Shown: positions 9,810 through 32,000, counted from the first letter of the stretch. The stretch: 32,000 bases of DNA from Ignicoccus hospitalis KIN4/I (GCF_000017945.1 NC_009776.1:630001-662000); one strand, 5' to 3'. The notes: a model not told the origin generated them from the letters alone. Translations and numbers: made by a program.

Positions 9810-10484
9810 TTGGGAAGAGTAGTGAACGACATAACGTCGCTGGTACTGACGTTGTTGATGTTGCTGGTGACATATACTTACGTCTCAACGATTTCTCCTT
9901 ACTACATCAACAAGACTCTAGACTTCGACTTGAGGAGGCTCTCAACGATCGAGGTGATAAAGTCCGAAAAGGAAGAGTTCTACCTCTTACACGTACAACC
10001 CTTCAACGGCACGGAGAGATGTAAGGTTTTAATTTACTTATCTCCTTTCGAATTTAAAACTTTCAAAAGGAACTTGAACCTCTTGTTTAGGTCGTTAGCC
10101 TCCAGCTCGATCGGGGTGTACGCGGTGGTCCAGAAGGGACCGAGGTGGCCGGAACCCCCCGCTTTAGAGGGTTACGGAGCTGCCTATTGTTGGGGTCCCT
10201 CGTGTCCCCACCCTGACGGTACTAATACGACCATACTCATGGATAACGCGGAAGGGAGCTATCAATTCCTTCTCAACGTGACCTCCCCTTACGGGCCCTT
10301 AAGCGTGCTGTTCGCTAACTACCTACTCAAGGTAGGCACCCTCCACTACGCCCCTCTGAAGAAAGGGATCTGGGTAGGCGACGTAATGATTTCTCCGGAC
10401 TCCTCGTTGGTGCCGCTCTACGCTTACGACCCACAGCGCGCTTTTGAGCTCCTCTACGCCCTTTGTGAAGGAGGCTTAAAGTGA
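9810..10484 (+). CDS. hypothetical N-terminally anchored/secreted protein
   Basis: 224 aa. Single N-terminal hydrophobic segment (ITSLVLTLLMLLVTYTYV), N-x-S/T sequons (NKT, NGT, NTT, NVT). GTGA overlap with the downstream gene. Confidence 0.45.
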   Translation: MGRVVNDITSLVLTLLMLLVTYTYVSTISPYYINKTLDFDLRRLSTIEVIKSEKEEFYLLHVQPFNGTERCKVLIYLSPFEFKTFKRNLNLLFRSLASSSIGVYAVVQKGPRWPEPPALEGYGAAYCWGPSCPHPDGTNTTILMDNAEGSYQFLLNVTSPYGPLSVLFANYLLKVGTLHYAPLKKGIWVGDVMISPDSSLVPLYAYDPQRAFELLYALCEGGLK

Positions 10485-12508
10485 GAGCTAAGGGCTCGCC
10501 GACCTTCGCCGCCCTAGCGGCCCTCGCTATAATAGCCTTCGCGATTTCCGGCAACGCTTGGGACACGTTCGTTTTCATAAAGAGCGCCATCTTGGTGTGT
10601 GAGGGTCAAGACGCTTATTCGTACTCAGAGTGGGTGGGGGCCCGCCTCCCGGGAATAGGTCCCATGTGGATAGCCTATCCCCCTTTACCCATCTTGCTAT
10701 GGCTTCCCCCGGTCTGCGCTTTACGAGCGCTGAACGTACCCTTGTCGTTGCCCTACTTGTGGGCGATTAAGCTACCCAGCGTCTTGGCATTAATAACATC
10801 AGCCCTCGTGGCGGAAAAGGTTCGAAGAGGATCTTGGAAGTACGTAATCTTCAACCCGGTCTCCTTGAGCGCCGTATTTCTGCACGGAATGTTCGACAGC
10901 ATTACAGCCCTCTTCGTATTGCTGAGTATATTACTCGTAATTAGTAACAAGACGGTCGTTGGCGGGTTGAGCTACGGTCTGGCGTTGACGTCCAAACAAC
11001 ACTCCTTGATCTTGCTCCCGAGCCTCGCCTTCTCCTTCTTAAAAAAGAAGGACGTCGTCAGCCTAGGGAAGTTCGTCATCGGCGCGTTCGTGTCCTTCGC
11101 TTCCGTGATCTTACTGTACGGCTTCTTGACGGGCGAGGGAACGTCCTCGCTGAGGGATTTGATCGCAGTTACCGTGTTCCACGCGAACAGGCCCCCCAAC
11201 GCGCTGGGGTTCGGCGGATTTCCGGAGGTATCTCTCTATACAGACGTACTCGGGGGGTACTCCGGGAACCTCGCGAACGCGGTCTTGATGCACGGCAGCG
11301 CCGTAACGCTTCACAGCGTGATAACTCCCGTATCGGCGCTCTACGTCCCAATGCTGCTCGCGGTCTCCTACCTCTTCGAGCTCCCTACGGCTGCGTTCCT
11401 AGCTTACGTAACTTACATACAGCTCACGTACGTGGGGGCGCTGCAGCACTTAGTGGTACCCGCAACGCTGCTTCCAATAGTTTTAAACGACAAGAAGTTC
11501 GTCAAATATTTCACACTCTCGTTCTTACTGTACTCGTTGGCTCACGTCATAGCGTTCTGGGACATATTTCCGATGATCTTCTCGCCATTATTCTTGGCGT
11601 CGTTTGACCTCTGGCTCTCTAAGCTGTCTAGAATAAGCGACGTGGTCCTCCCGGGCTGGGACATGGCCTTCAAGCTGTCGGGTTCGCTATTAACGGTCGC
11701 CGGCCTACTGGTACTGCTGTACGCCACCTTTAGGTTGTTGGAGCTCAAAAGGAGGGCCTTGGGCGTCGCTTTCATTGCGACATACTTAATTGAAATGACT
11801 ATCCTCATCTTGATGTTGAAGTGGTACGCGTCCAGCTCGGAGCTCCCCGCGGCAAAGCTGGGAGAAAGGCTCTGCGCCGTGTACCCTTGGGAAAACGTAG
11901 AGTTCCCTGGCGAGCGACTCGGTGACTACTTGTTTACTAAGTCGGTCCCGCCTAAGGAGGGTTACTTCTCCCTAGTCAAGCCCATAACGGACGAGGTGGC
12001 GGAAAGCGCCGCGAAGGGCGGCTTCAGAGTGCTCGTAATCGCCAGGTTGGACTCCTTAAGGAGTTACGAGGTCAGCGACCTGTTGGCGTCCTTAACGCTC
12101 GGGGGCGTTGAGTGGGCTTGGGGGGTAGTGGTGTCGGACGAAGACAAATATTACATAGACGGAGTCGCAAGCGCGCCTTTGAAGGACGTAGGGAGGTTGG
12201 CAGAGATCATAAGGAGGAACGTGCCCTTGAAGGGGTATTTCGAACTCGGGGGCATCTTGGGCTTCCTCAACCAAACAATAATGAAGATTGAAGTCCATGA
12301 GTACGAGTACCCTACGGTCGACGGGAAACCCATAGTATACGTTATTCCAGAAGACGCGTCCCCCTCCTCCATAAAAGAGGTGGTTAGGGAGCTGTCCGAA
12401 AAGGGACTCGCCCCAGTGGTAGTAACGAACGTTGAGTTCGCTAACGTTAAGAGCGATAAGCGCTGTATGGTTAATCTGTTCAGAGTCTCGGAGCTATCCA
12501 CATCCTGA
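10481..12508 (+). CDS. large polytopic membrane protein with a C-terminal soluble domain (GT-C-like glycosyltransferase candidate)
   Basis: 675 aa. More than 10 hydrophobic helices across aa 1-450, then a soluble domain of about 220 aa. The topology resembles GT-C/DUF2029-type enzymes, but I recognise no diagnostic motif with certainty. Confidence 0.55.
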   Translation: MRAKGSPTFAALAALAIIAFAISGNAWDTFVFIKSAILVCEGQDAYSYSEWVGARLPGIGPMWIAYPPLPILLWLPPVCALRALNVPLSLPYLWAIKLPSVLALITSALVAEKVRRGSWKYVIFNPVSLSAVFLHGMFDSITALFVLLSILLVISNKTVVGGLSYGLALTSKQHSLILLPSLAFSFLKKKDVVSLGKFVIGAFVSFASVILLYGFLTGEGTSSLRDLIAVTVFHANRPPNALGFGGFPEVSLYTDVLGGYSGNLANAVLMHGSAVTLHSVITPVSALYVPMLLAVSYLFELPTAAFLAYVTYIQLTYVGALQHLVVPATLLPIVLNDKKFVKYFTLSFLLYSLAHVIAFWDIFPMIFSPLFLASFDLWLSKLSRISDVVLPGWDMAFKLSGSLLTVAGLLVLLYATFRLLELKRRALGVAFIATYLIEMTILILMLKWYASSSELPAAKLGERLCAVYPWENVEFPGERLGDYLFTKSVPPKEGYFSLVKPITDEVAESAAKGGFRVLVIARLDSLRSYEVSDLLASLTLGGVEWAWGVVVSDEDKYYIDGVASAPLKDVGRLAEIIRRNVPLKGYFELGGILGFLNQTIMKIEVHEYEYPTVDGKPIVYVIPEDASPSSIKEVVRELSEKGLAPVVVTNVEFANVKSDKRCMVNLFRVSELSTS

Positions 12509-13250
12509 GCTCGGAGCCCGCTTCCATACTCATCTCCAACTTCATAGGCATATCTGTTGCAAACTCTAACGTTAATTCCTTGGCAGCTTGGTAGGCCCTC
12601 GTAGCGTCGTAGAGGTGCTGGACGGAGTACTTTGCCTTGGCCTCCTTCTCTACTACCAAACTAACTAACGGATTGAAGAGCTTCAGCTCGGCCTCGTAGC
12701 TCTTGTTGGCCTCGAATGAAACGAATGTCAGAGTCTCGTTGTCTGGGGTAGAAACCTCTACCTCGTCAGAAACTATCTTCGCGTCGGCCACAACATGACG
12801 GAGGTCAGCGGGGTCCATCTTCGCCGTAACGGTTAATTGAACTTGAGGTTCGTCTAGGTGTTCCTCCTCCGGGACCTCGAAAGCTTGGATCTTGAACTCC
12901 CTTTCCACGCTAGTCTTCCTGTTCAAGAACTTAACGTGTAGGTAGGGGCTTCCTTTGTAGTACTCTAGTATCACAGCGTCGTCCTTCGTCCCCCTCTTTA
13001 CCACCTTGTTCAACTCGTCGCTATCTATCTTGACCACCACGTTTTCTTCATTGACTTGGTACTCCTCGAAAGACGTAGAAGGCATGGTGAATATTACCAT
13101 AGTGTTTTTATCGCTACTCATACTCTTTATGTCTATACCCTCTTGAGTCACGTAGAGGGGCATTGCCTCGAAGAGTTTGGTGAGGGGCTGGAATATCTTC
13201 TTGAATTTGCTGGCTTGGGGGAACATGAGCCTAAAGGTCGGTTCGTCCAT
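12480..13250 (-). CDS. pcn: DNA polymerase sliding clamp PCNA
   Basis: I use the internal ATG at 13250 (MDEPTFRLMFPQASKFKKIFQPLTKLFEAMPLYVTQEGIDIKSMSSDKNTMVIF ...), giving 256 aa, the typical PCNA length and N-terminus. The TATA-like element at 13273..13281 is centred 27 nt upstream. The 91 extra N-terminal codons of track ORF 12480..13523 are antisense to 13314..13700. Confidence 0.9.
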   Translation of the reverse strand: MDEPTFRLMFPQASKFKKIFQPLTKLFEAMPLYVTQEGIDIKSMSSDKNTMVIFTMPSTSFEEYQVNEENVVVKIDSDELNKVVKRGTKDDAVILEYYKGSPYLHVKFLNRKTSVEREFKIQAFEVPEEEHLDEPQVQLTVTAKMDPADLRHVVADAKIVSDEVEVSTPDNETLTFVSFEANKSYEAELKLFNPLVSLVVEKEAKAKYSVQHLYDATRAYQAAKELTLEFATDMPMKLEMSMEAGSELRMWIAPRL

Positions 13251-13272
13251 GGAGTTCCTCCGCCGACGTTTG

Positions 13273-13281
13273 CTATTTAAC
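13273..13281. promoter_or_regulatory. TATA-like element between divergent PCNA and 13314 genes
   Basis: CTATTTAAC (minus-strand GTTAAATAG) is centred about 27 nt from the PCNA ATG (13250) and about 37 nt from GTG 13314. Confidence 0.4.
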
Positions 13282-13313
13282 TTTCTTGAGGTTAACGGGG
13301 GCGGGAGTAAGGC

Positions 13314-13700
13314 GTGAAGACGATAAAGGTCGTGGTAGACGGCGGCAAGTATAAGTGGGTAGAGCTTCCGCGGGAGGAGGCGCTGAAGCTCCTCGAAATA
13401 ATTGAGGGGAAGCTGGGCAAGAGCCCGAGGGACCTCCAGGAGACCATGAGGTACCTCCGCCACTTCGAGGAGTTTTACCGAGACATGCAGAAGAGGTTCA
13501 AGGACTTCATAGCGCCCCCTCACAGCTTAGACGACATGATAAGGGGAATTGTTGTCGTCGATAAGATAGCGTTAAAGAAGGAAGGCAACGAAGAGATTGC
13601 TACAATAGTTTTCGACCGCAGAATTTCTGTGGACTTGCTAAAGGAGGCATTGAAGGAGCTGGGGTACGAGGTAGAAGTGGAGGTAGAGAAGCCGTGGTAG
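13314..13700 (+). CDS. hypothetical charged soluble protein
   Basis: 128 aa, GTG start, with Lys/Glu-rich protein-like composition (KVVVDGGKYKWVELPREEALKLLEIIEGKLGKSPRDL ...). No family recognised. 7-nt overlap with the next ORF. Confidence 0.5.
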   Translation: MKTIKVVVDGGKYKWVELPREEALKLLEIIEGKLGKSPRDLQETMRYLRHFEEFYRDMQKRFKDFIAPPHSLDDMIRGIVVVDKIALKKEGNEEIATIVFDRRISVDLLKEALKELGYEVEVEVEKPW

Positions 13701-13912
13701 AGGCTACCAGGGCGTTCGTCCAGTGTTGGAGGGGGAGCTGCGACGAGGTGGTCTCTAAGCTTAGAGAGAGGTTCCCCGTGAAGGCCGTTCAGAAGTCGAA
13801 GGTCGTGCCGAACTTCGTAATGATAGAGTTCGAAGGTCTAGTGGAGGGGGTTGAAGAGTCCTTAAGGGATTTGGGCATTGAGGACTTCAAGGTCATGCGC
13901 GTAAGGGTCTGA
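13694..13912 (+). CDS. hypothetical small protein
   Basis: 72 aa (…VVPNFVMIEFEGLVEGVEESLRDLGIEDFKVMRVRV) with plausible alpha/beta composition. Its 3' 124 nt are antisense to the tail of the VirB4-like ORF. Confidence 0.4.
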   Translation: MVEATRAFVQCWRGSCDEVVSKLRERFPVKAVQKSKVVPNFVMIEFEGLVEGVEESLRDLGIEDFKVMRVRV

Positions 13913-15177
13913 AAGGGGTCCACTTTAACCCTTACCACTTCTCCGTCGGGCGTCATAATTAGCGCTTCGCCCACTTCCAGCTTCCTCAATTCGAGTAAGT
14001 CTATCTGCAACCCCAGCTCCTTTAATTCTTGCACTTCTAAGTACTTCATGAAAATCTTTGTATGGGCGTTGTTCAAGACACCGCTACCAAAGTCTTTCAA
14101 GGACTGTGTAGCTAGAATTACTCCGACGCCCCTACTCCTCCCCTCCCTCATCATGCTCTCTAAGGTCTCCTCCTCCAACAACCAAGCCTCGTCAATTATT
14201 ACCAACCTCTTCAAACTGTCGCTCAGTTCCTCTTTCAGTATGCTCGACAATATGTCGCTTGCGAAGGCCTCAGTGACTTTCCTCCGCCTCCTCATTTCCT
14301 CCTCCGCGAAGGGCCCGTAAACCTTGTACCCCTCACCGCACATATTTATTAAATCTCCTTTGGGGTCCATGATAGTTATGTTTTCTATACCAACCAGCTT
14401 GGCTCGGGCCGCCAAGGTGCACAGAAGGGTGCTCTTCCCGCTCCCGGTGGAGCCGAGCACTAAGACGTGACGGAGCAAGTCCTCAGCGTCCATCAGGAAG
14501 GCTTCGCCGTCCTCCCGGATGCCTAAATATATAAGAGCCTTCTCGTTATACGTCTTCGCCTTGGGCTGCACCACGTAGAAAGACTTAGAATTCGCTATTA
14601 TCTTCTTACCGTCCTCACCTTTGATAACCCTCAAGAGCTCCGGGCCGCTCAGCCGCCTCACTTCCACGTTGAGTATGCCCTCAACCACACCTTTGAGATA
14701 TTCTATGTCCTTCTCTAATTTTTCCTTAGAATTTGCGCGTATTATGTAATACGTGTTTACCGACGTGGGAGGGTATTTGGACACGGCTTCCAACAAACTT
14801 TCAAAGTACTTTAACTTCTCTTCAGCCTTCACGTTGCTGTTATCCTTACTCAATATTATTCTCAAAGTACTAATTTCGTTCTCTATTTTCTTTAATAACT
14901 TCTTAGAATCCTCGGAACTCCTAATTACTCTTACCTCAAGCTCCGAGCCCTTACAACACTTGGAGAGCGACCTGGCGTAGTCGTAGATCCTCCGGACGTC
15001 GTAGGAGTGCAACGGGTCCACCTTCTCTACCTTGAGGGCGCCTACGTAAGATTCGGAAGGGCCCTCCTCTATAATTAGAACGTCCTTGCCCACGCGATAA
15101 CGTCGCTTCTTCTTAGAGTTCAACTTATTGCACATAATAATTGAAGACAATATTGCAAGCGCTAGCTCCAAGAACAC
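13789..15177 (-). CDS. VirB4/TrbE/CedB-type FtsK-HerA superfamily ATPase with an N-terminal hydrophobic anchor
   Basis: 462 aa. N-terminal hydrophobic segment MFLELALAILSSIIM; Walker A HVLVLGSTGSGKSTLL; Walker B RLVIIDEAWLL; GRSRGVGVILATQSLKDF. The DEAW plus TQS pattern is the VirB4-clade signature and contrasts with the LEEAH HerA signature of the other ATPase in this window. The last about 41 codons (S/T/K-rich) are antisense to ORF 13694..13912. Confidence 0.75.
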   Translation of the reverse strand: MFLELALAILSSIIMCNKLNSKKKRRYRVGKDVLIIEEGPSESYVGALKVEKVDPLHSYDVRRIYDYARSLSKCCKGSELEVRVIRSSEDSKKLLKKIENEISTLRIILSKDNSNVKAEEKLKYFESLLEAVSKYPPTSVNTYYIIRANSKEKLEKDIEYLKGVVEGILNVEVRRLSGPELLRVIKGEDGKKIIANSKSFYVVQPKAKTYNEKALIYLGIREDGEAFLMDAEDLLRHVLVLGSTGSGKSTLLCTLAARAKLVGIENITIMDPKGDLINMCGEGYKVYGPFAEEEMRRRRKVTEAFASDILSSILKEELSDSLKRLVIIDEAWLLEEETLESMMREGRSRGVGVILATQSLKDFGSGVLNNAHTKIFMKYLEVQELKELGLQIDLLELRKLEVGEALIMTPDGEVVRVKVDPFQTLTRMTLKSSMPKSLKDSSTPSTRPSNSIITKFGTTFDF

Positions 15178-15181
15178 GCTG

Positions 15182-16708
15182 TCACCACATCCTTACTACG
15201 AGGCTCTTCGACCCCTCAGAGATCAACGACGCTATCGCCCTAGCCACCAACCCAGTCAACACGATATGGATCGCGGGGAGGGCCGAAACTATGAATGGGA
15301 CGACGAGGAGGTACTGCTGGGAGGCGTGGTGTCGAACGTAGCTTATAGTGTTCTTCATCCTTATTCCCATCAAGCTGGCTAAGTAACCTAAGACGTGCGG
15401 CTTGGGGGGCGTGAAGGTGCCCACGGTGCCGTAAACGACTATCTCCACGCGCTCACCGCTGCTCATTCGGAAACTTATTATGTAGCTGGGCATCCCCTCC
15501 CACGAATCCATGTTTATCCGGGAATTAGCCAAATTGTGGCTGCTGACGAAGCTAACGCGATCCTTCAAGACTCCGGTAGCTACTATGTGAACCTCGGTGT
15601 CGCGGAGCGCGGTTAATTTGAACTGGAGGTACAACGTTCCAGCTTGAGGGTCCACGGACGGCTTGAACTCCGCCAAGACGTCACCCACTACGGCCACGCC
15701 GGGCGAAAAGGCCCACACCTTGCCCATCTTAATCGTAACCTCGCCGAAAGACCCCTTGTCCATGGAACCGAACCTCACCCACCCGTAATTCACGACGAGC
15801 CCGTAAAGGTCGACCTTCACGAAGGCACGAGGCCACGGCGCCCCTCCTAAGGGGATACGGGTGTCGAACCTCCCCTCGCCGTCTAACGGGTAGAGGCCGA
15901 AGCGGCCGTTCCTATCCTCAAAGTAGATGAACGCGTGTACAACGGGCTCTCCGCGGGCGTCCTCGACCTTCCCGTAAGGGTAAGCCACGCCCGTCGAGGC
16001 GCGGACCGGCAAGTTCAATATCAGTTCCGTCACTACCTTTAAGGCCGGGTTGTAGCTCGCTATGAGTCTCAATAGCGAGACCACTAAAGGTACGAAAACG
16101 TACGTACTAATAGCGAACCCTATCAGAGCGGCCCCTACAGACTTCGTGAGCCGGAACGGTACCCCTAAGGCCAAAGTACCGAGAGCTAACATAACTGGCA
16201 TGACCAACTCGCCCACGACCGCCAAGATGTAAGTGAACGTCCACAAGTAAGCCCCAGCCTTGAAAACCATTATTAACAAGTCCAAGGTAAACGAAGACGC
16301 CCAGTTGCCCAAAGGGTCAAGGGCTGAGACCACCTCGTAGAAGACGTTTAACGCTTTACCCAAGGGCAGTCCGAACACGTTCAGCGAGAACACGCTAGAG
16401 AACATGATTTTTAACAATTTGAAGAACAAGTACAGCCTTGCTATCCCGTTGGCTATCTCATATATCTCGTGTACCAGCTCCTCCCTGGAAGTGGACGTCG
16501 TCGCCTCGATTACCCAGTCCGAAAAATATATTATAGAGCCATACGCAAGGCTCATCACCAAGACGAGTTGAGCGTCGCTTATCAAGATGGGGGCCCACCT
16601 CTTCACGCCCCTTATCGGCAAGGGAAGGGCGTACAGTAAGACTCCTAATGCGTAGCTCAAGCCCGATAGGGCTACTGAAAGCGTTAGCAGCGAAGTGATG
16701 ACGTCCAC
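15182..16708 (-). CDS. polytopic membrane protein with a large beta-rich soluble insert (CedA/VirB6-like candidate)
   Basis: 508 aa, GTG start, separated by 4 nt from the ATPase gene. About 6 TM helices in aa 1-230, a soluble Gly/Val/Phe-rich region at aa about 235-455 (nt about 15344..16006), and a C-terminal TM (YLLVVPFIVSALPAIHIVLTGLVARAIASLI). The family call rests on context and topology only. Confidence 0.5.
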   Translation of the reverse strand: MDVITSLLTLSVALSGLSYALGVLLYALPLPIRGVKRWAPILISDAQLVLVMSLAYGSIIYFSDWVIEATTSTSREELVHEIYEIANGIARLYLFFKLLKIMFSSVFSLNVFGLPLGKALNVFYEVVSALDPLGNWASSFTLDLLIMVFKAGAYLWTFTYILAVVGELVMPVMLALGTLALGVPFRLTKSVGAALIGFAISTYVFVPLVVSLLRLIASYNPALKVVTELILNLPVRASTGVAYPYGKVEDARGEPVVHAFIYFEDRNGRFGLYPLDGEGRFDTRIPLGGAPWPRAFVKVDLYGLVVNYGWVRFGSMDKGSFGEVTIKMGKVWAFSPGVAVVGDVLAEFKPSVDPQAGTLYLQFKLTALRDTEVHIVATGVLKDRVSFVSSHNLANSRINMDSWEGMPSYIISFRMSSGERVEIVVYGTVGTFTPPKPHVLGYLASLMGIRMKNTISYVRHHASQQYLLVVPFIVSALPAIHIVLTGLVARAIASLISEGSKSLVVRMW

Positions 16709-16761
16709 CGACGCCCCTAACGTTTAACCCTACAAGGGCCGGAGAGGGGGACGCCGTAACT

Positions 16762-18708
16762 ATGAAGAAAGGGTGGAACGTTAAGACCGGAATAGTGTGG
16801 GACGTAGAGAAGAACGTGCCTACGTTCAAGGAGGACTGCTGGGACTGCGAGACTGTAGAGCTCCCCACGACCTTGCCGGGGGACGCCCGATTCGCCTTCG
16901 AGCACGATATAGGCTTGCTCAAGGAGGCCCTAGAGCGCGAGTTCGGGGACTCCGACTTCCTGTGGAAGGTCTTGGGGGGCAAAGGGGTTGTTTTGGTAAA
17001 CAAGGGCGCCGGGCTGGACGACTTCAGGGAGCTCTTCTCGAGAGGCGCCATAGTTGGCAAGCTCTACTGGGAACCAATAGAGAGGACGTGGAGGTTCAGG
17101 CCCTCCTACGCGGGGGCCTCAGTTCTAGTCGAGCTGGGCGTAGCCAAAACGGTCGAGGTAGAGGAGCACCCGAGCGAAGGCTCCTCCATATTTTACGAGG
17201 GTTGTAAGGACGGAGAACAAGTGATACTGGTTAATAGAGAGAAGGTTCCCGTAGGGGTCGGGGTCTGCAGAAAGGGGCGCGTCAGGGTAATAACGTCATT
17301 TCCCAAGTCGGTGGTCGGGAAAGAGCCGTTCCCCGCCAAGCCGCTCCCCACTACCATAGAGGACACGATCAAGTTCAACGAACGCCGCCTTCGGAGGCTC
17401 ACCTCCCAATCGAAGAGGTTCATATACTCTATGGTAAGCAAGGTGGAGAAGCCGCTCACGGTCTCCTTCTCCGGGGGCAAGGACAGCTTGGTAGCTCTCC
17501 ACCTAACCTTGGAGTTCGGCAAACCTATCGTGGTATTTAACAACACTGGAATAGAAATGCCGGAGACCGTCGAGACCGTGAGGAGGGTCGTGGAGGCGTT
17601 CGACCTAGAGCTGGCGGTCGCCGACGCCGGCAACTCGTTCTGGGAGGCAATGAAGAGGAACTCCCCTCCAGCGAGGGACCTCAGGTGGTGCTGTAAAGTA
17701 ACCAAACTCGTACCTATGGCCAAGCTGGTGAAGGAGAGGTGGCCCTCCGGCACCTTGAACGTAGTGGGGCAAAGGGCCTTTGAGAGCATAGAGAGGAGCA
17801 AGTCCCCGAGGGTGTGGAGGAACAAGTGGTTCCCGCAAGTGCTTAACATCGCTCCCATACACTATTGGACCCAGCTCGACGTTTGGATGTACATATTCCA
17901 AAAGGGGCTAAAGGACTTAGTCAACCCCCTCTACTTCAAGGGCTTCGAGAGGATAGGCTGCTTCATGTGTCCCGCCAGCTTGTTGGCCGAGTTCGAGTTC
18001 ACAAAACGCGTCCACGAAGACTTGTGGAACAAGTGGGAGAAGGAGGTGGAGAGGTGGAGAAGAATCATGGGGTTGCCACTCGAGTGGAGGGAGTACGGCC
18101 TGTGGAGGTGGCTCAGCCCGAGCTCGAAGAAGAAGAGTTTTATGAATAAGCTTGGAATAAGCTACAGCTGGGAAGAAGAGTATAACAGCAGGCTCTTCCC
18201 GAGGATAATTAGGTCGGAGAACGGGGACGAGAAGGCCATCATAGAGTACTCTTCTAATATAGAGAAAGCGTTGGAAGACCAGTGGAGCATACTGGGCAAG
18301 AGGGTCGAGCGTAACAATGTAAAGACGCAGAACGGTCATGAAATAACTTTCTCCAAAAACAAGGTTGAGGTCGTAGGCAAGAACCCCTTAGAGGAAGCTT
18401 TGGTGGTCGACGCGCTCATCCACCGTTGGTACCAGTGCATGAAGTGTAAGAGTTGCGAGCTCTGGTGCCCCACCGGGGCCATCAAGGTTGAGGAGAGGCC
18501 TAAGGTGGACCCGGAGAGGTGCGTCTCGTGTAGGCTCTGCGTGCTGGAGTGTCCGATATACGAACCGGTGACCGATAGGGTGAGCGCCTCGGTGATCTTG
18601 GGGAGGCCGGACGGTTGGAGAAGGAAGACGAAGAAGGCGAGGAAGGAAGTAATAAAGGAACTGAAGGAGGCGGTGTTGGACGACGCGAAGGGGCTCGGCG
18701 GCCTTTGA
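16762..18708 (+). CDS. PAPS-reductase-like PP-loop ATP pyrophosphatase fused to a 2x[4Fe-4S] ferredoxin domain, with an unassigned N-terminal domain of about 200 aa
   Basis: 648 aa. PP-loop PLTVSFSGGKDSLVALHL; PAPS-reductase-type core (RWCCKVTKL, ERIGCFMCP); C-terminal CMKCKSCELWCPTGAI ... CVSCRLCVLECP (two CxxCxxCxxxCP motifs); Lys/Arg-rich tail. Confidence 0.75.
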   Translation: MKKGWNVKTGIVWDVEKNVPTFKEDCWDCETVELPTTLPGDARFAFEHDIGLLKEALEREFGDSDFLWKVLGGKGVVLVNKGAGLDDFRELFSRGAIVGKLYWEPIERTWRFRPSYAGASVLVELGVAKTVEVEEHPSEGSSIFYEGCKDGEQVILVNREKVPVGVGVCRKGRVRVITSFPKSVVGKEPFPAKPLPTTIEDTIKFNERRLRRLTSQSKRFIYSMVSKVEKPLTVSFSGGKDSLVALHLTLEFGKPIVVFNNTGIEMPETVETVRRVVEAFDLELAVADAGNSFWEAMKRNSPPARDLRWCCKVTKLVPMAKLVKERWPSGTLNVVGQRAFESIERSKSPRVWRNKWFPQVLNIAPIHYWTQLDVWMYIFQKGLKDLVNPLYFKGFERIGCFMCPASLLAEFEFTKRVHEDLWNKWEKEVERWRRIMGLPLEWREYGLWRWLSPSSKKKSFMNKLGISYSWEEEYNSRLFPRIIRSENGDEKAIIEYSSNIEKALEDQWSILGKRVERNNVKTQNGHEITFSKNKVEVVGKNPLEEALVVDALIHRWYQCMKCKSCELWCPTGAIKVEERPKVDPERCVSCRLCVLECPIYEPVTDRVSASVILGRPDGWRRKTKKARKEVIKELKEAVLDDAKGLGGL

Positions 18709-29999: not shown

Positions 30000-30815
30000 C
30001 TCGGCAAGCACTTCCATTATGTCGCCCGTGCACGGCTTTTTGGGTTTCCTAAACTTGTTAGGGCCCTTCCTCCTAAGGGCGGCACAGTCCTCTTGCTTTG
30101 AGTAGAAACACGGGTAGGAGAAGAGGTAGAACGGGCTCACGCCCTCCTCCGCCGCCGCGTAGAGCGCCTTTATCGAGCCCAAGGGGACCTTAGCATATAC
30201 GTAATCTATCAGTCTCTTGAACTGTTCCCACGCCTCGACGCTGACGTACCTCTTCCCCAGGTAACACTCCTTCGCTTTCAACAGCCTCTCTGCCACACAA
30301 GCCGGGTCCGCGGGGGGCCTCCCCGGGTAGGCGACCACCATTTCTCCCCTTCTCTTGCCTAAAGCCGCCATAGCCAAGAAAGAGGCAAAACACTCTGCGG
30401 GCTGCGGCGAAGCGGCGCAGAACGCGTCCCCTACCACCAACTCCTTGTCCCCGAGGACCTTGTCGACGCTGTCCAACACCATAGGCCAGGGGTCTCTGAG
30501 ACAAATTACAAACGTCTTAAACCCCTTCCCGGCTAACTGACTCTCGGGCAGGGGCCCTTTCTTCAACCTGCTCGAGGGGTTCAACAGAAAGGCGGAGTCG
30601 TATACCCTCTTGGCGTCCACGACTTCGCCCTTCTTACAAGGCCTCAACGAGACTACGTCGAAAGTTCTACGGGCCTTACCCTTTCCGCCGACCTCCTCTG
30701 AGCCCCCTTCTCCCTTTTTCGAAGCGTCGTATTCGGTGGTTATCAAATATCCCAACGCGACGAGCGTTGAGCTAATTCCGCCTAAGCCGACCGCTACTCT
30801 TCCCACGTCCCCCAT
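29991..30815 (-). CDS. hypothetical Cys-rich protein, partner of the HerA-type ATPase
   Basis: 274 aa with about 10 Cys. N-terminal strand and Gly loop VAVGLGGISSTLVALGYL, a Gly/Lys/Glu-rich linker, and a basic tail RRKGPNKFRKPKKPC. No family recognised. 22-nt overlap with the upstream ATPase gene and 9-nt convergent overlap with pyrH. Confidence 0.5.
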   Translation of the reverse strand: MGDVGRVAVGLGGISSTLVALGYLITTEYDASKKGEGGSEEVGGKGKARRTFDVVSLRPCKKGEVVDAKRVYDSAFLLNPSSRLKKGPLPESQLAGKGFKTFVICLRDPWPMVLDSVDKVLGDKELVVGDAFCAASPQPAECFASFLAMAALGKRRGEMVVAYPGRPPADPACVAERLLKAKECYLGKRYVSVEAWEQFKRLIDYVYAKVPLGSIKALYAAAEEGVSPFYLFSYPCFYSKQEDCAALRRKGPNKFRKPKKPCTGDIMEVLAELR

Positions 30816-32000
30816 TCTTCATCGTCCCTCGTGGCGTGGTACTTCTCCCACTCGTCCACCGCGTCGATGTCTTGTCCGACTTTCTTTATTTCGGCGTGGT
30901 CCACCTTCACTATAGCCGGCAACGGCGCCAAAGGGCCTAGGACTAGGGCCTCTCCCACCGAGAGCGAAGGCAAGTGTTTGACCAGCTCCTCGCTCAAGCC
31001 CTCGCTGCTGGCTTGTACGTGCCTCTGGTCTCCGGGTTCGACCAGCTTAAGCACTATCAGATTGTTGGCTTGACTCAAGGCGTCTTGGTCCAAGCCCTTA
31101 GGCCTCTGGGAGACCATAACTAGGCCTACGCCGAACTTCCTCCCTTCCCTAGTTATTCTCGACACCCAGTACTTGGTCAAGGTCCTCCTGTTAGCGGGCG
31201 CGAGTATGTGGGCCTCTTCCAGCACCAAGAGGATAGGAACTTTTAGGACTGCTTTACCCTTAGAGCCGGCCTCCCCCAAGACCTTCCTCTTCCTCGCGTT
31301 CAATATACTCTTTAGAGATACACTTACAATTATATCGGCCATATCTTCGTCCAGCGAGTGTAAGTCCATCACGTTCAGCGAGGCCGGCTTTATCCTTTCC
31401 ACTACGTCGGAGGCGTCAAAGTCAAATATTTCCTTGTATTTCTGTTCTGCATCTTGGATCTTTACCAACAAGTTAGGTATGGCAGAGTTGACGTCGCTCT
31501 TCGCGTCTATTACAGTGTACAAGTCAGAGCAGTCGTTCTTCTCACAGACTTTCGTCTTGTTCGCATTCTTTAAAGCAATCTTTATTGACGTCAACGGCGT
31601 CGTGGGGTTGAACTTACCGTACTCCCTTAGAATCTGCGCCGCCAACGCGATGTTATCGTAGTGGATAACGGGCATCTCTTTGGTGTGCATTAGCTCAATC
31701 AACATGTTTTGTAATATTCTGAAGAACTTTTCTTTACTCTCGACGACGTTGCTGTTCTCTATCACTTTCCATAAGGTTAACACGTTACGGAGGTAAAGCT
31801 CTTGTTTATGTGCGTCCTTGCTGAGGCCGATGAGCTTGGAGAAGGAGTCCGCGTCCAGCTTCGTAGGGTCGAGCTTAGGCTCTATGACGTTTACGTACTC
31901 CGCGTCGAGCCTCGAGTACTCGCCGTGCATGTCAAAGATGAGAACGCATCCATTCTTTTCTTTAACTATTCTGGTCGTTAGGACGGTAACGGTGTTACTC
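30794..32000 (-). CDS. HerA-type (DUF87) FtsK-HerA superfamily ATPase, N-terminus beyond the right window edge
   Basis: The track starts at M (31930), but manual translation shows the frame is open to nt 32000 (…SNTVTVLTTRIVKEKNGCVLIFDMHGEYSRL), the HerA motif that follows Walker A. Walker B PILLVLEEAHILAP; REGRKFGVGLVMVSQRPKGLD; NLIVLKLVEPGDQRHV; SVGEALVLGP. Confidence 0.8.
   Translation of the reverse strand, partial: SNTVTVLTTRIVKEKNGCVLIFDMHGEYSRLDAEYVNVIEPKLDPTKLDADSFSKLIGLSKDAHKQELYLRNVLTLWKVIENSNVVESKEKFFRILQNMLIELMHTKEMPVIHYDNIALAAQILREYGKFNPTTPLTSIKIALKNANKTKVCEKNDCSDLYTVIDAKSDVNSAIPNLLVKIQDAEQKYKEIFDFDASDVVERIKPASLNVMDLHSLDEDMADIIVSVSLKSILNARKRKVLGEAGSKGKAVLKVPILLVLEEAHILAPANRRTLTKYWVSRITREGRKFGVGLVMVSQRPKGLDQDALSQANNLIVLKLVEPGDQRHVQASSEGLSEELVKHLPSLSVGEALVLGPLAPLPAIVKVDHAEIKKVGQDIDAVDEWEKYHATRDDEEWGTWEE

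What the first reader, a model, noticed from the sequence alone, without database searches (positions are those of the whole stretch)
13789..16708. VirB4-type ATPase plus 508-aa polytopic membrane protein: a Ced/Ted-like (conjugation-related) DNA-transfer module with atypical architecture and no visible pilin gene
Seen in sequence:
- ORF 13789..15177 has an N-terminal hydrophobic anchor, Walker A GSTGSGKST, Walker B VIIDEAWLL and GVGVILATQSLKDF. That is the VirB4/TrbE motif set, not the LEEAH set of the HerA paralogue at 30794..32000.
- Four nt upstream lies a 508-aa protein with about 6 TM helices, a soluble beta-rich insert of about 220 aa (nt about 15344..16006) and a C-terminal TM.

Established knowledge: the crenarchaeal Ced DNA-import system pairs a polytopic membrane protein (CedA, VirB6-like) with a VirB4/HerA-like ATPase (CedB). 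It also needs small two-helix VirB2-like pilins (CedA1/A2; TedC in Thermoproteales).

Inference: this pair is a Ced/Ted-type translocon.

Unusual points:
1. The operon is closed on both sides (divergent gene at 16762, convergent genes ending at 13912). It contains no separate small 2-TM ORF of 60 aa or longer.
2. The first about 65 aa of the membrane protein form two hydrophobic helices joined by a basic loop (PIRGVKRW). This could be a fused pilin-like hairpin.
3. I do not expect the large beta-rich ectodomain from what I recall of CedA.
4. The 5' half of the ATPase gene is much more AT-rich than its surroundings. I counted 20/60 G+C in both 14821..14880 and 14881..14940.
Basis: partly seen in the sequence, partly recalled or inferred. 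Interest (0 to 1): 0.75.

Follow-up and report, generated by a model that had tools for sequence, protein, structure and literature searches.

The report
Ignicoccus CedA–CedB DNA-transfer pair, pilin unlinked
This is the Ignicoccus hospitalis copy of the archaeal Ced DNA-exchange machine (a membrane channel, CedA, plus its ATPase, CedB); it is a divergent but recognisable member of a known system, and its one real oddity is that the pilin gene that sits next to cedA almost everywhere else is missing from the locus in this lineage.

Summary
Two genes on the minus strand lie 4 nt apart: a 508-aa polytopic membrane protein (15182..16708) and a 462-aa membrane-anchored P-loop ATPase (13789..15177). 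All quoted motifs and G+C counts are correct.

The organism is Ignicoccus hospitalis. Curated HMMs rank CedA first for the membrane protein and CedB first for the ATPase. Both scores are far below the equivalog cut-offs, but within or near the range of genes in canonical cedA1-cedA-cedB operons.

Two of the four "unusual" points are ordinary:
- The N-terminal pilin-like hairpin is a known, universal CedA feature.
- The ~230-aa beta-rich ectodomain is the common architecture of non-Sulfolobales CedA. Most complete CedA genes in 62 fetched loci have it, and it is homologous between lineages (hhalign 98.3%).

The AT-rich patch is real but reflects a K/E/N/I/S-rich helical segment.

One point is truly unusual. 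A CedA1 profile finds the pilin gene next to cedA in 56 of 59 other loci. It finds none in four Ignicoccaceae-type loci, nor in about 46 kb around this one. I could not test whether the gene is absent from the whole genome.

Verdict: a divergent variant of a known system, of moderate interest.

The parts
15182..16708 (-). cedA-like gene: 508-aa polytopic membrane protein (a VirB6-like channel subunit), of the 'long' CedA type
   Evidence: NCBIfam CedA NF041796 scores 1.4e-21 (77 bits), CedE 2.7e-15 and CedA1 0.0014. The precomputed Pfam family is PF27251. It aligns end to end with the CedA of canonical cedA1-cedA-cedB loci.
16523..16702 (-). N-terminal two-helix hairpin (aa 3-62) joined by the basic loop PIRGVKRW; homologous to the CedA1/VirB2-type pilin
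   Evidence: NCBIfam CedA1 matches aa 3-62 (E 0.0014). My own 25-sequence CedA1 HMM matches aa 7-66 (E 0.0015). This is a known general feature of CedA (PMC9905601).
16013..16708 (-). TM core (aa 1-232, about six helices). It corresponds to positions ~5-200 of the 259-position Sulfolobales CedA model.
   Evidence: Hydropathy. NCBIfam CedE match, aa 7-230 to model positions 6-209. Alignment with short CedAs.
15329..16006 (-). Extracytoplasmic beta-rich ectodomain (aa 235-460), inserted between TM6 and the last TM
   Evidence: AF2 models it as all-beta, with pLDDT 65-94. A profile search of 1.84 billion proteins finds it only in same-architecture proteins and, for subdomain 1, in giant repeat proteins. 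It is homologous to the ectodomain of other long CedAs: hhalign 98.3%, E 2e-14. The extracytoplasmic side is inferred from the positive-inside rule.
15773..15976 (-). Ectodomain subdomain 1 (aa 245-312), a CarboxypepD_reg/transthyretin-like beta-sandwich
   Evidence: Profile positions 26-89 hit repeats of giant surface proteins. One of these, P0027, carries 13 PF13620 CarboxypepD_reg stretches.
15419..15742 (-). Ectodomain subdomain 2 (aa 323-430), a beta-sandwich with no named family
   Evidence: pLDDT 82-94. Foldseek against PDB gives only generic beta-sandwich matches. No Pfam hit.
15185..15322 (-). C-terminal TM helix plus conserved cytoplasmic tail (ARAIASLISEGSKSLVVRMW)
   Evidence: Conserved in the close relatives and aligned with the '..LA..LGG...R.P' tail of both short and long CedAs.
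13789..15177 (-). cedB-like gene: 462-aa membrane-anchored ATPase of the FtsK/HerA/VirB4 superfamily
   Evidence: NCBIfam CedB scores 1.9e-21 (76 bits) and CedD 9e-14. It aligns nearly full-length with 22 cedA-linked ATPases, but with its own HerA only in P-loop patches. NCBI names it a 'type IV secretory system conjugative DNA transfer family protein'.
15121..15177 (-). N-terminal membrane anchor of CedB (aa 1-19), followed by KKKRRYR
   Evidence: Hydropathy. The same anchor is present in all aligned relatives.
14620..15102 (-). CedB N-terminal domain (aa 26-186). It includes the low-GC patch at 14683..14952.
   Evidence: The NCBIfam CedB best stretch, aa 79-276 to model positions 111-316, spans this domain. 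AF2 pLDDT is about 60-90. GC is 0.374 and GC3 0.489 over aa 76-165.
13918..14535 (-). P-loop ATPase domain (aa 215-420): Walker A 14428..14454, DPKGDL 14350..14367, Walker B 14176..14202, REGRSRG 14128..14148
   Evidence: These motifs are invariant across nine relatives. pLDDT is 85-92. Foldseek matches TrwK/VirB4, HerA and FtsK at E 1e-10 to 3e-11.
13792..13908 (-). Ser/Thr-rich C-terminal tail of CedB (aa 424-462), encoded antisense to a real convergent gene; probably a dispensable extension
   Evidence: pLDDT is about 25. The tail is absent in P0010/P0011 and variable in relatives. It overlaps the conserved 72-aa gene.
16709..16761 (.). 53-nt divergent intergenic region that must hold the cedAB promoter; there is no room for a cedA1 gene
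   Evidence: Sequence read. The same divergent PAPS-reductase-like neighbour is present in L011 and L013.

Best explanation
**What it is.** Genes 15182..16708 and 13789..15177 form a two-gene, probably translationally coupled, chromosomal operon of Ignicoccus hospitalis. It encodes the core of a Ced-type (Crenarchaeal exchange of DNA) translocon.

**CedA.**
- It is a seven-TM protein homologous to VirB6.
- By the positive-inside rule, its N-terminus faces out and its C-terminus faces in.
- Its first two helices are a pilin-like hairpin.
- Its last external loop is a ~230-aa two-beta-sandwich ectodomain.

**CedB.** It is a hexameric-type FtsK/HerA/VirB4-superfamily ATPase, tethered to the membrane by one N-terminal helix.

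**How it probably works (inferred by homology with the Sulfolobus and Aeropyrum systems).** CedA oligomerises into the membrane conduit, and CedB powers movement of (probably single-stranded) chromosomal DNA through it during cell-to-cell DNA exchange. The ectodomain would project from the membrane as a stalk-like or contact platform.

**What differs from other lineages.** The pilin gene cedA1 is not upstream of cedA in the Ignicoccaceae-type loci. Either the pilin is encoded elsewhere or the module works without a pilus.

**Shown:** homology, architecture, synteny and local absence of cedA1.
**Inferred:** DNA as substrate, direction of transport, topology and ectodomain role.
For: **Family assignment.**
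- CedA, CedE and CedA1 are the only NCBIfam hits of the membrane protein. CedB is the top hit of the ATPase, ahead of CedD. The same ranking holds in five relatives.
- Calibration for CedA: short CedAs score 305-321 bits, long CedAs with an adjacent cedA1 score 124-158 bits, and this clade scores 70-100 bits.
- Calibration for CedB: ATPases next to bona fide cedA1-cedA pairs score 31-260 bits on the CedB model, and this one scores 76.

**Full-length relationships.**
- The ATPase aligns over aa ~66-428 with cedA-linked ATPases (E 1e-13 to 1e-22). It matches its own HerA at E 3e-6 over about 75 aa.
- CedA aligns full-length with Acidilobaceae CedA, including the C-terminal TM and tail.
- The ectodomains are homologous (hhalign 98.3%).

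**Function retained.** Catalytic motifs are invariant.

**Chromosomal, vertically inherited context.**
- The neighbourhood of housekeeping genes is conserved in L011 and L013 and, for the downstream 72-aa and 128-aa genes, in L016.
- No CedA relatives were found in IMG/VR.

**Published function of the family.** DNA import (PMC9905601, PMC11868833).
Against: - Both scores are far below NCBIfam's equivalog cut-offs (77 vs 330 bits; 76 vs 700 bits). Orthology in function is therefore not guaranteed.
- No cedA1 was found in the window, in 14 kb of extra flanks, or in three relatives' loci. A defining component is unaccounted for.
- The ATPase is 50-130 aa shorter than other CedBs.
- Ignicoccus has an outer cellular membrane and no S-layer (my own background knowledge), so the cell-envelope context differs from that of studied Ced hosts.
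- No expression or functional data exist for this organism in the searchable literature.
Confidence: 0.75

Rival explanations
1. The system is a complete, canonical Ced system. cedA1 (and perhaps cedD) has simply moved elsewhere in the I. hospitalis chromosome, so nothing about the mechanism differs from Aeropyrum.
For: - Ced genes are not always linked. [quoted passage not shown] From memory, Sulfolobus cedB is also unlinked from cedA.
- In L049, cedA1 lies about 2 kb from cedA.
- cedAB has been kept intact across a clade whose CedA sequences are down to 36% identical. This is easier to understand if the pilus still exists.
Against: - cedA1 is immediately upstream of cedA in 56 of 59 other loci, including Sulfolobales-type short CedAs. 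The linkage is normally very tight.
- About 46 kb around the I. hospitalis locus, and +/-10 kb (6 kb for L016) in three relatives, have no hit.
Confidence: 0.5
2. The Ignicoccaceae module is a pilus-less derivative. cedA1 was lost, and CedA (with its own pilin-like hairpin and ectodomain) plus CedB act alone as a contact-dependent or intermembrane translocon.
For: - None of four Ignicoccaceae-type loci has cedA1.
- This is the most divergent CedA and CedB subfamily. It has clade-specific changes: an extra ~35 aa in the TM3-TM4 region and a shortened ATPase.
- The genome is small, at 1.30 Mb.
Against: - Genome-wide absence is untested.
- The N-terminal hairpin is not more pilin-like than in other CedAs: 13.5-21.5 bits here against 16-35 bits elsewhere.
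- There is no experimental precedent for a pilus-free Ced system.
Confidence: 0.25
3. The ATPase is a HerA-type repair helicase, a MADS-type defence ATPase (mad8) or a virus-type packaging ATPase, and merely sits beside an unrelated membrane protein.
For: - PADLOC mad8 scores 83 bits, and several HerA models hit.
- The PHROG 'terminase large subunit' family scores 58 bits.
- The best PDB sequence matches are HerA-type chains.
Against: - All these matches cover only the P-loop domain (aa ~215-426).
- The N-terminal domain matches CedB only and aligns with cedA-linked ATPases.
- The partner protein is CedA by HMM and has no defence or phage hits.
- No other MADS genes are nearby.
- The genuine 585-aa HerA, with NurA beside it, lies 15 kb away.
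- The 4-nt spacing and the conserved cedA-cedB pairing across lineages argue for a functional pair.
Confidence: 0.03
4. The pair is a remnant of an integrated conjugative plasmid or ICE, i.e. a mobile-element T4SS rather than a domesticated cellular system.
For: - NCBI's name for the ATPase refers to conjugative DNA transfer.
- There are weak TraD, TrwB and TraG-type hits.
Against: - The flanks are housekeeping genes (PCNA, a PAPS-reductase-like enzyme, radical SAM/TtuA, ribosomal proteins). Their order is the same in L011 and L013, which are independent genomes.
- No integrase, relaxase or plasmid genes are present.
- GC is unremarkable except for one short patch.
- There are no relatives in IMG/VR.
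Confidence: 0.03

Closest known systems
Ced system of Sulfolobales and Aeropyrum pernix (CedA, CedA1, CedA2, CedB; van Wolferen 2016 as cited in PMC9905601; Beltran 2023, PMC9905601)
   Same: - Homologous CedA: an N-terminal pilin-like hairpin, a six-helix core and a conserved C-terminal TM and tail.
- Homologous membrane-anchored CedB.
- Chromosomal ('domesticated') location.
- cedA-cedB adjacency, as in the Acidilobaceae-type loci fetched here.
   Different: - No cedA1 next to cedA.
- CedA is 508 aa, against about 260 aa in Sulfolobales, because of the ectodomain. This feature is shared with most non-Sulfolobales CedAs.
- CedB is short (462 aa against 500-630 aa).
- Scores are only 23% (CedA) and 11% (CedB) of the NCBIfam equivalog cut-offs.
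- UV induction and DNA import are untested.
'Long' CedA operons (cedA1-cedA-cedB) of Acidilobaceae and related uncultured Thermoprotei
   Same: - Same CedA architecture: a homologous ~230-aa ectodomain between TM6 and TM7.
- Same gene order, cedA then cedB.
- Chromosomal context.
   Different: - Those loci carry an 80-115-aa two-TM cedA1 immediately upstream (CedA1-profile E 1e-27 to 1e-43).
- Their CedB has about 50 extra residues between DPKGDL and Walker B.
- Many are followed by the uL2 ribosomal protein gene or by a tail-anchored coiled-coil protein, neither of which is seen here.
Ted system of Thermoproteales (TedA/TedB/TedC; PMC9905601)
   Same: The same three-part logic (VirB6-like, VirB4-like, VirB2-like) and the same chromosomal domestication.
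   Different: According to the paper, Ted components show no recognisable sequence similarity to Ced components. Here the HMM evidence is specifically for Ced. TedC-like pilins carry a cleaved signal peptide, and no such gene was seen nearby.
Bacterial conjugative T4SS inner-membrane core (VirB6/TrwI stalk base, VirB4/TrwK; Macé 2022, PMC9259494)
   Same: - The ATPase model superposes on TrwK/VirB4 over about 490 columns (E 3e-11).
- CedA is reported as a remote VirB6 homologue (PMC9905601).
- In R388, VirB6 forms the base from which the pilus is proposed to grow. This is a plausible analogy for the CedA ectodomain.
   Different: - No VirB3, B5, B8, B9, B10 or B11, and no coupling protein or relaxase.
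- The ATPase carries its own TM anchor.
- By sequence, the ATPase domain is closer to HerA-type chains than to VirB4.
- The VirB6-like fold of this CedA could not be verified, because the TM part of the model has pLDDT below 50.
CedD/CedE paralogues of Saccharolobus (Wu 2025, PMC11868833)
   Same: Second-best NCBIfam hits for both proteins: CedD 9e-14 and CedE 2.7e-15.
   Different: CedB and CedA score higher in every member of the clade. The paper describes CedE as specific to the genus Saccharolobus. Whether I. hospitalis also has a CedD could not be tested.

Membership tests
Ced system (Crenarchaeal exchange of DNA) | A CedA-family polytopic membrane protein (VirB6-like) is present | tested here: met
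   NF041796 CedA is the top hit (E 1.4e-21, 77 bits). This is below the 330-bit equivalog cut-off, so it shows family-level membership rather than equivalog membership. The protein aligns full-length with the CedA of canonical operons.
Ced system (Crenarchaeal exchange of DNA) | A CedB-family membrane-anchored ATPase is present | tested here: met
   NF041017 CedB is the top hit (E 1.9e-21, 76 bits; cut-off 700). This lies within the 31-260-bit range of ATPases next to bona fide cedA1-cedA pairs. The alignment with those ATPases is nearly full-length.
Ced system (Crenarchaeal exchange of DNA) | A CedA1 two-TM pilin gene is present (normally immediately upstream of cedA) | tested here: not met
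   Tested at the locus only. There is no CedA1-profile hit and no two-TM small ORF in the 32-kb window, in 14 kb of flanks, or in the loci of three relatives. By contrast, 57 of 59 other loci have one. The rest of the genome could not be searched with these tools.
Ced system (Crenarchaeal exchange of DNA) | Induction by UV or DNA damage, and a requirement for DNA import | not testable with these tools
   Needs transcriptomics or genetics. No Ignicoccus data were found in the library.
Ced system (Crenarchaeal exchange of DNA) | Chromosomal, non-mobile location | tested here: met
   Housekeeping synteny is conserved in relatives. No relatives were found in IMG/VR.
VirB4 family (TIGR00929 / CagE_TrbE_VirB) | Significant full-length match to VirB4 profiles | tested here: not met
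   TIGR00929 scores 23 bits (cut-off 643) and matches the P-loop only (aa 233-260). The TrbE models score 17-26 bits. PDB VirB4 4ag5 has E 8e-4, against HerA-type chains at 4e-15. Fold similarity to TrwK/VirB4 exists but is no better than to HerA.
HerA (DNA repair helicase) | HAS-barrel N-domain, an LEEAH-type Walker B, and a NurA partner | tested here: not met
   The HerA models score 21-26 bits, over short parts of the ATPase domain only. Walker B is IIDEAW. The genuine HerA (585 aa, HAS-barrel, NurA neighbour) is a separate gene at the window's right end.
Ted system (Thermoproteales) | TedA/TedB/TedC homologues | not tested
The positive Ced hits make Ted membership unnecessary.
MADS defence system (mad8 ATPase) | mad8 accompanied by the other mad genes | tested here: not met
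   mad8 scores 83 bits, on the P-loop domain only. The partner protein has no PADLOC hit, and no other mad genes are in the operon.

The most novel reading that the evidence does not exclude
Ignicoccaceae have lost the CedA1 pilin altogether and run a pilus-less CedA-CedB translocon. The channel's own pilin-like hairpin and its two-domain ectodomain would then provide the extracytoplasmic conduit or contact. This could be an adaptation to the unusual double-membrane envelope of Ignicoccus, possibly relevant to DNA traffic across the intermembrane compartment or with its Nanoarchaeum partner.
Probability: 0.2. Interest if true: 0.7.

Novelty: new variant of a known kind. Interest (0 to 1): 0.4.

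Why it matters
**For Ignicoccus.** If confirmed, I. hospitalis would have a Ced-type DNA-exchange module. I. hospitalis has a streamlined genome, an outer cellular membrane and a Nanoarchaeum partner (my background knowledge). I found no paper in the searchable library linking Ignicoccus to Ced.

**Comparative by-products that may matter more than the locus itself.**
- Most CedA proteins outside Sulfolobales carry a conserved ~230-aa two-beta-sandwich ectodomain. The Ced papers I could read do not mention it. It is a candidate for the missing 'stalk' or pilus base in a system that lacks VirB5, B8 and B10.
- The cedA1-cedA linkage is almost universal, so its absence in one clade is a clean natural experiment on whether Ced can work without a pilus.

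Both points can be tested directly with one genome-wide HMM search and with structural work.

Tried and rejected
**Searches that gave little.**
- Word-indexed protein searches with the membrane protein, alone and as a five-sequence profile, found only six close relatives.
- A sequence search of PDB with the CedA profile found nothing, so the A. pernix CedA1 pilus structure could not be linked by sequence.
- A scan of IMG/VR for CedA relatives found nothing.
- The library does not hold the van Wolferen 2016 PNAS paper. I could not check whether I. hospitalis was already listed there as a Ced carrier.

**Structure work that was inconclusive.**
- The AlphaFold model of CedA from a five-sequence alignment has pLDDT below 50 in the TM part. 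The VirB6-like fold was therefore not tested. Foldseek returned only generic beta-sandwich hits for the ectodomain.
- Foldseek with the ATPase model cannot separate VirB4 from HerA.

**Ideas rejected.**
- Defence (mad8, HerA-type) and phage terminase-like hits were rejected as P-loop-only matches.
- The low-GC patch as foreign DNA was rejected. It aligns without indels to relatives and tracks amino-acid composition.
- A TedC-like or other small secreted pilin nearby was rejected. The 91-aa and 87-aa conserved small proteins are soluble.

**Not possible.** A search of the rest of the I. hospitalis genome for cedA1 or cedD was not possible.

Full report
**1. What is in the sequence**

Two minus-strand ORFs are present as described: 15182..16708 (508 aa) and 13789..15177 (462 aa).
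- The first ends VVRMW-TGA. After four bases ('cagc') the second starts with GTG.
The basic loop PIRGVKRW is at aa 31-38 of the membrane protein.
- Hydropathy gives the ATPase one N-terminal helix followed by KKKRRYR.
- It gives the membrane protein about six helices within aa 1-215, a long polar stretch at aa ~235-460, and a last helix at aa 463-487.
- An AlphaFold model from five sequences is poor in the membrane part (pLDDT below 50). It folds aa 245-312 and 323-430 as two beta-sandwich units with pLDDT 65-94.
- The G+C counts are exact, at 20/60 twice. 14651-14950 is the lowest-GC 300 nt of the window.

**2. Where it comes from**

- The ATPase is 100% identical to a protein NCBI names 'type IV secretory system conjugative DNA transfer family protein [Ignicoccus hospitalis]', on a 1,297,538-bp contig.
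- The same gene order occurs in two relatives (L011 and L013): a divergent PAPS-reductase-like gene, then cedA-like, then cedB-like, then convergent small genes, then PCNA. Their CedA sequences are 36-50% identical to this one.
- The metagenomic locus L016 shares the cedA-cedB pair and the downstream 72-aa and 128-aa genes.
- The flanks are housekeeping genes. The pair is therefore chromosomal and vertically inherited.
- CedA relatives are absent from IMG/VR.

**3. What the two proteins are**

*Curated models.*
- Against NCBIfam, the membrane protein hits only CedA (E 1.4e-21, 77 bits), CedE (2.7e-15) and, with its first 62 residues, the pilin CedA1 (0.0014).
- The ATPase hits CedB best (1.9e-21, 76 bits), then CedD (9e-14), then a Mycoplasma VirB4 model. 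HerA and classical VirB4/TrbE models score only 17-26 bits.
- The ranking is the same for five relatives.
- The scores are far below the equivalog cut-offs of 330 and 700 bits, so I calibrated them.

*Calibration against canonical operons.*
- Using the ATPase family as query, a scan of species-representative genomes returned Acidilobaceae-type loci with the canonical operon cedA1 (84-93 aa, two TM), cedA (454-456 aa), cedB (511-542 aa).
- A metagenome scan with a CedA alignment returned 58 more loci.
- On the CedA model, short (252-265 aa, Sulfolobales-type) CedAs score 305-321 bits. Long CedAs with an adjacent cedA1 score 124-158 bits. The Ignicoccus clade scores 70-100 bits.
- ATPases that follow bona fide cedA1-cedA pairs score 31-260 bits on the CedB model. 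The Ignicoccus protein, at 76 bits, lies inside that range.

*Direct comparison of the ATPase.*
- It aligns over aa ~66-428, including its N-terminal domain, with 22 cedA-linked ATPases (BLASTP E 1e-13 to 1e-22).
- It matches the HerA of its own genome only in two P-loop patches (E 3e-6).
- That HerA is a separate 585-aa gene with a HAS-barrel and a NurA neighbour, at the window's right end.

*The motif argument does not hold.*
- By sequence against PDB, HerA-type chains are the best matches (4e-15) and VirB4 is weak (8e-4).
- By fold, TrwK/VirB4 (3e-11, 492 columns) and Sulfolobus HerA (3.4e-11, 533 columns) tie.
- This agrees with Wu et al. 2025. They note that CedB and CedD were classified in the HerA clade by their ATPase domains, while their N-domains resemble parts of the VirB4 N-domain (PMC11868833).

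*Other hits.* Defence (mad8, 83 bits) and phage (terminase-like, 58 bits) hits cover only the P-loop domain. The partner protein has none.

**4. The four 'unusual points'**

*(a) The pilin-like N-terminus.*
- Beltran et al. [quoted passage not shown]
- Every CedA I tested shows the same CedA1 hit.
- With a 25-sequence CedA1 profile built here, the Ignicoccus-clade N-termini score 13.5-21.5 bits, against 16-35 bits for other CedAs.
- The hairpin is therefore normal, not a compensating fusion.

*(b) The ectodomain.*
- Most complete CedA ORFs in the fetched loci are 454-489 aa, with a 225-268-residue gap between TM6 and the last TM. Only a few are ~250-280 aa.
- An alignment of short and long forms shows a clean insertion between TM6 and a conserved C-terminal TM and tail.
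- A profile-profile comparison of Ignicoccus-type and other ectodomains gives 98.3% probability and E 2e-14 over 211 columns. The domain is therefore ancestral to the long forms, not a local novelty.
- An exhaustive profile search of 1.84 billion representatives finds the whole ectodomain only in proteins of the same architecture. Its first ~65 residues also match repeats in giant surface proteins. One of those proteins is packed with CarboxypepD_reg repeats.
- The second subdomain has no named relative.
- The basic loops (RGVKRW, FRLTKS) and the basic C-tail place the ectodomain outside the cytoplasm by the positive-inside rule. This is an inference.

*(c) The AT-rich patch.*
- aa 76-165 of the ATPase have GC 0.374 and GC3 0.489, and are 56% K/E/N/I/S.
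- Relatives are not GC-poor there, and the segment aligns to them without indels.
- This is lineage-specific compositional drift in a helical segment.

*(d) The missing pilin. This is the point that survives.*
- The CedA1 profile gives hits of E 1e-27 to 1e-43 in 57 of 59 non-Ignicoccus-type loci that have upstream DNA. In 56 of them the hit is immediately upstream of cedA, often overlapping its start.
- The exceptions are L049, where cedA1 is 2 kb away, and L061/L062, which are low-GC contigs with tandem short cedA paralogues.
- In the window, in 14 kb of additional I. hospitalis flank, and in L011, L013 and L016, the only hits are the CedA N-termini themselves.
- A hydropathy scan finds no plausible two-TM small ORF.
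- The 53-nt divergent intergenic region leaves no room for a gene.
- I could not search the rest of the genome. 'Relocated' and 'lost' both remain open.

**5. How it most likely works**

- By homology, CedA forms the membrane conduit and CedB is the motor. CedB is tethered by its own N-terminal helix, which Wu et al. suggest substitutes for VirB3/VirB8-type adaptors (PMC11868833).
- The catalytic residues are invariant across the family: Walker A K248, Walker B D329/E330, and the REGRSRG arginines. The ATPase is thus presumably active.
- In the R388 T4SS, VirB6 forms a pentameric base from which the pilus is proposed to grow, capped by VirB5 (PMC9259494).
- Ced lacks VirB5, B8 and B10. The conserved CedA ectodomain is therefore a reasonable candidate for the equivalent extracytoplasmic platform. 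This is an analogy, not a test.
- Direction of transport (import in Sulfolobus), substrate and regulation are all inferred.

**6. Verdict**

- The gene pair is a divergent CedA-CedB module of a known system, in a lineage where I found no published mention of it.
- The 'atypical architecture' is mostly typical of non-Sulfolobales Ced.
- The real peculiarity is loss of the otherwise near-universal cedA1-cedA linkage in the Ignicoccaceae-type clade.
- Interest is moderate. It would rise if a genome-wide search showed that the pilin is truly absent.

Noticed in passing
window 13694..13912 (+), overlapping 13789..13912 of the ATPase gene: The 72-aa ORF convergent to cedB is a real gene. It is 39-43% identical over its full length in three relatives, and its start overlaps the stop of the upstream 128-aa gene. 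Gene callers skipped it in I. hospitalis but called it in L011. The last ~40 codons of cedB (Ser/Thr-rich, pLDDT ~25) are its antisense read-through. The overlap is 124 nt here, 127 nt in L013 and 45 nt in L011.
   Followed up: yes
window 13314..13700 (+): A 128-aa protein with no family hit is 83-84% identical across Ignicoccaceae-type genomes whose neighbouring proteins are only ~35-50% identical. It is an unusually constrained unknown protein.
   Followed up: partly
window 30794..32000 (-), continuing beyond the window (L015 8265..10022): The 'HerA paralogue' is the genuine 585-aa HerA (HAS-barrel plus DUF87), with NurA divergently next to it. The 378-aa ORF listed in the window is only its C-terminal part, from an internal ATG.
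   Followed up: yes
window 16043..16162 (-), CedA aa 183-222: The TM5-loop-TM6 segment (VPFRLTKSVGAALIGF...) gives a second, very weak match to the CedA1 pilin profile (E 25). It shares the P-x-basic-loop pattern of the N-terminal hairpin. This may hint that CedA arose by duplication of pilin-like hairpins, but it is not significant on its own.
   Followed up: no
loci L006, L022, L024, L054, L058, L063, L064, L070 (downstream of cedB); L005, L008, L009, L034, L050, L056: In many lineages the cedA1-cedA-cedB operon is followed directly by the ribosomal protein uL2 gene. In another set it is followed by a co-oriented 194-212-aa coiled-coil protein with a C-terminal TM anchor that overlaps the cedB stop. 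That protein is a possible undescribed accessory component.
   Followed up: partly
loci L061, L062 and L049 (metagenome contigs, GC 0.35-0.40): These contigs carry two tandem short CedA paralogues (289+339 aa, and 246+253 aa) with near-identical N-termini. L061 and L062 have no cedA1 nearby. In L049 a cedA1 lies 2 kb upstream, with a 934-aa protein and a 598-aa CedB-like ATPase downstream. This may be a CedA/CedE-like duplication or a mobile-element version.
   Followed up: partly
window 10481..12508 (+): A 675-aa polytopic membrane protein with only a weak ALG3 (GT-C glycosyltransferase) match overlaps the PCNA gene end. It is conserved in the relatives and is possibly a surface glycosylation enzyme.
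   Followed up: no
window 12480..13523 (-): The mechanical ORF for PCNA is 347 aa, but gene callers and the Pfam match indicate a 256-aa protein starting at the internal Met (MDEPTFRL...). The upstream 91 codons overlap the 128-aa gene on the other strand and are probably not translated.
   Followed up: partly
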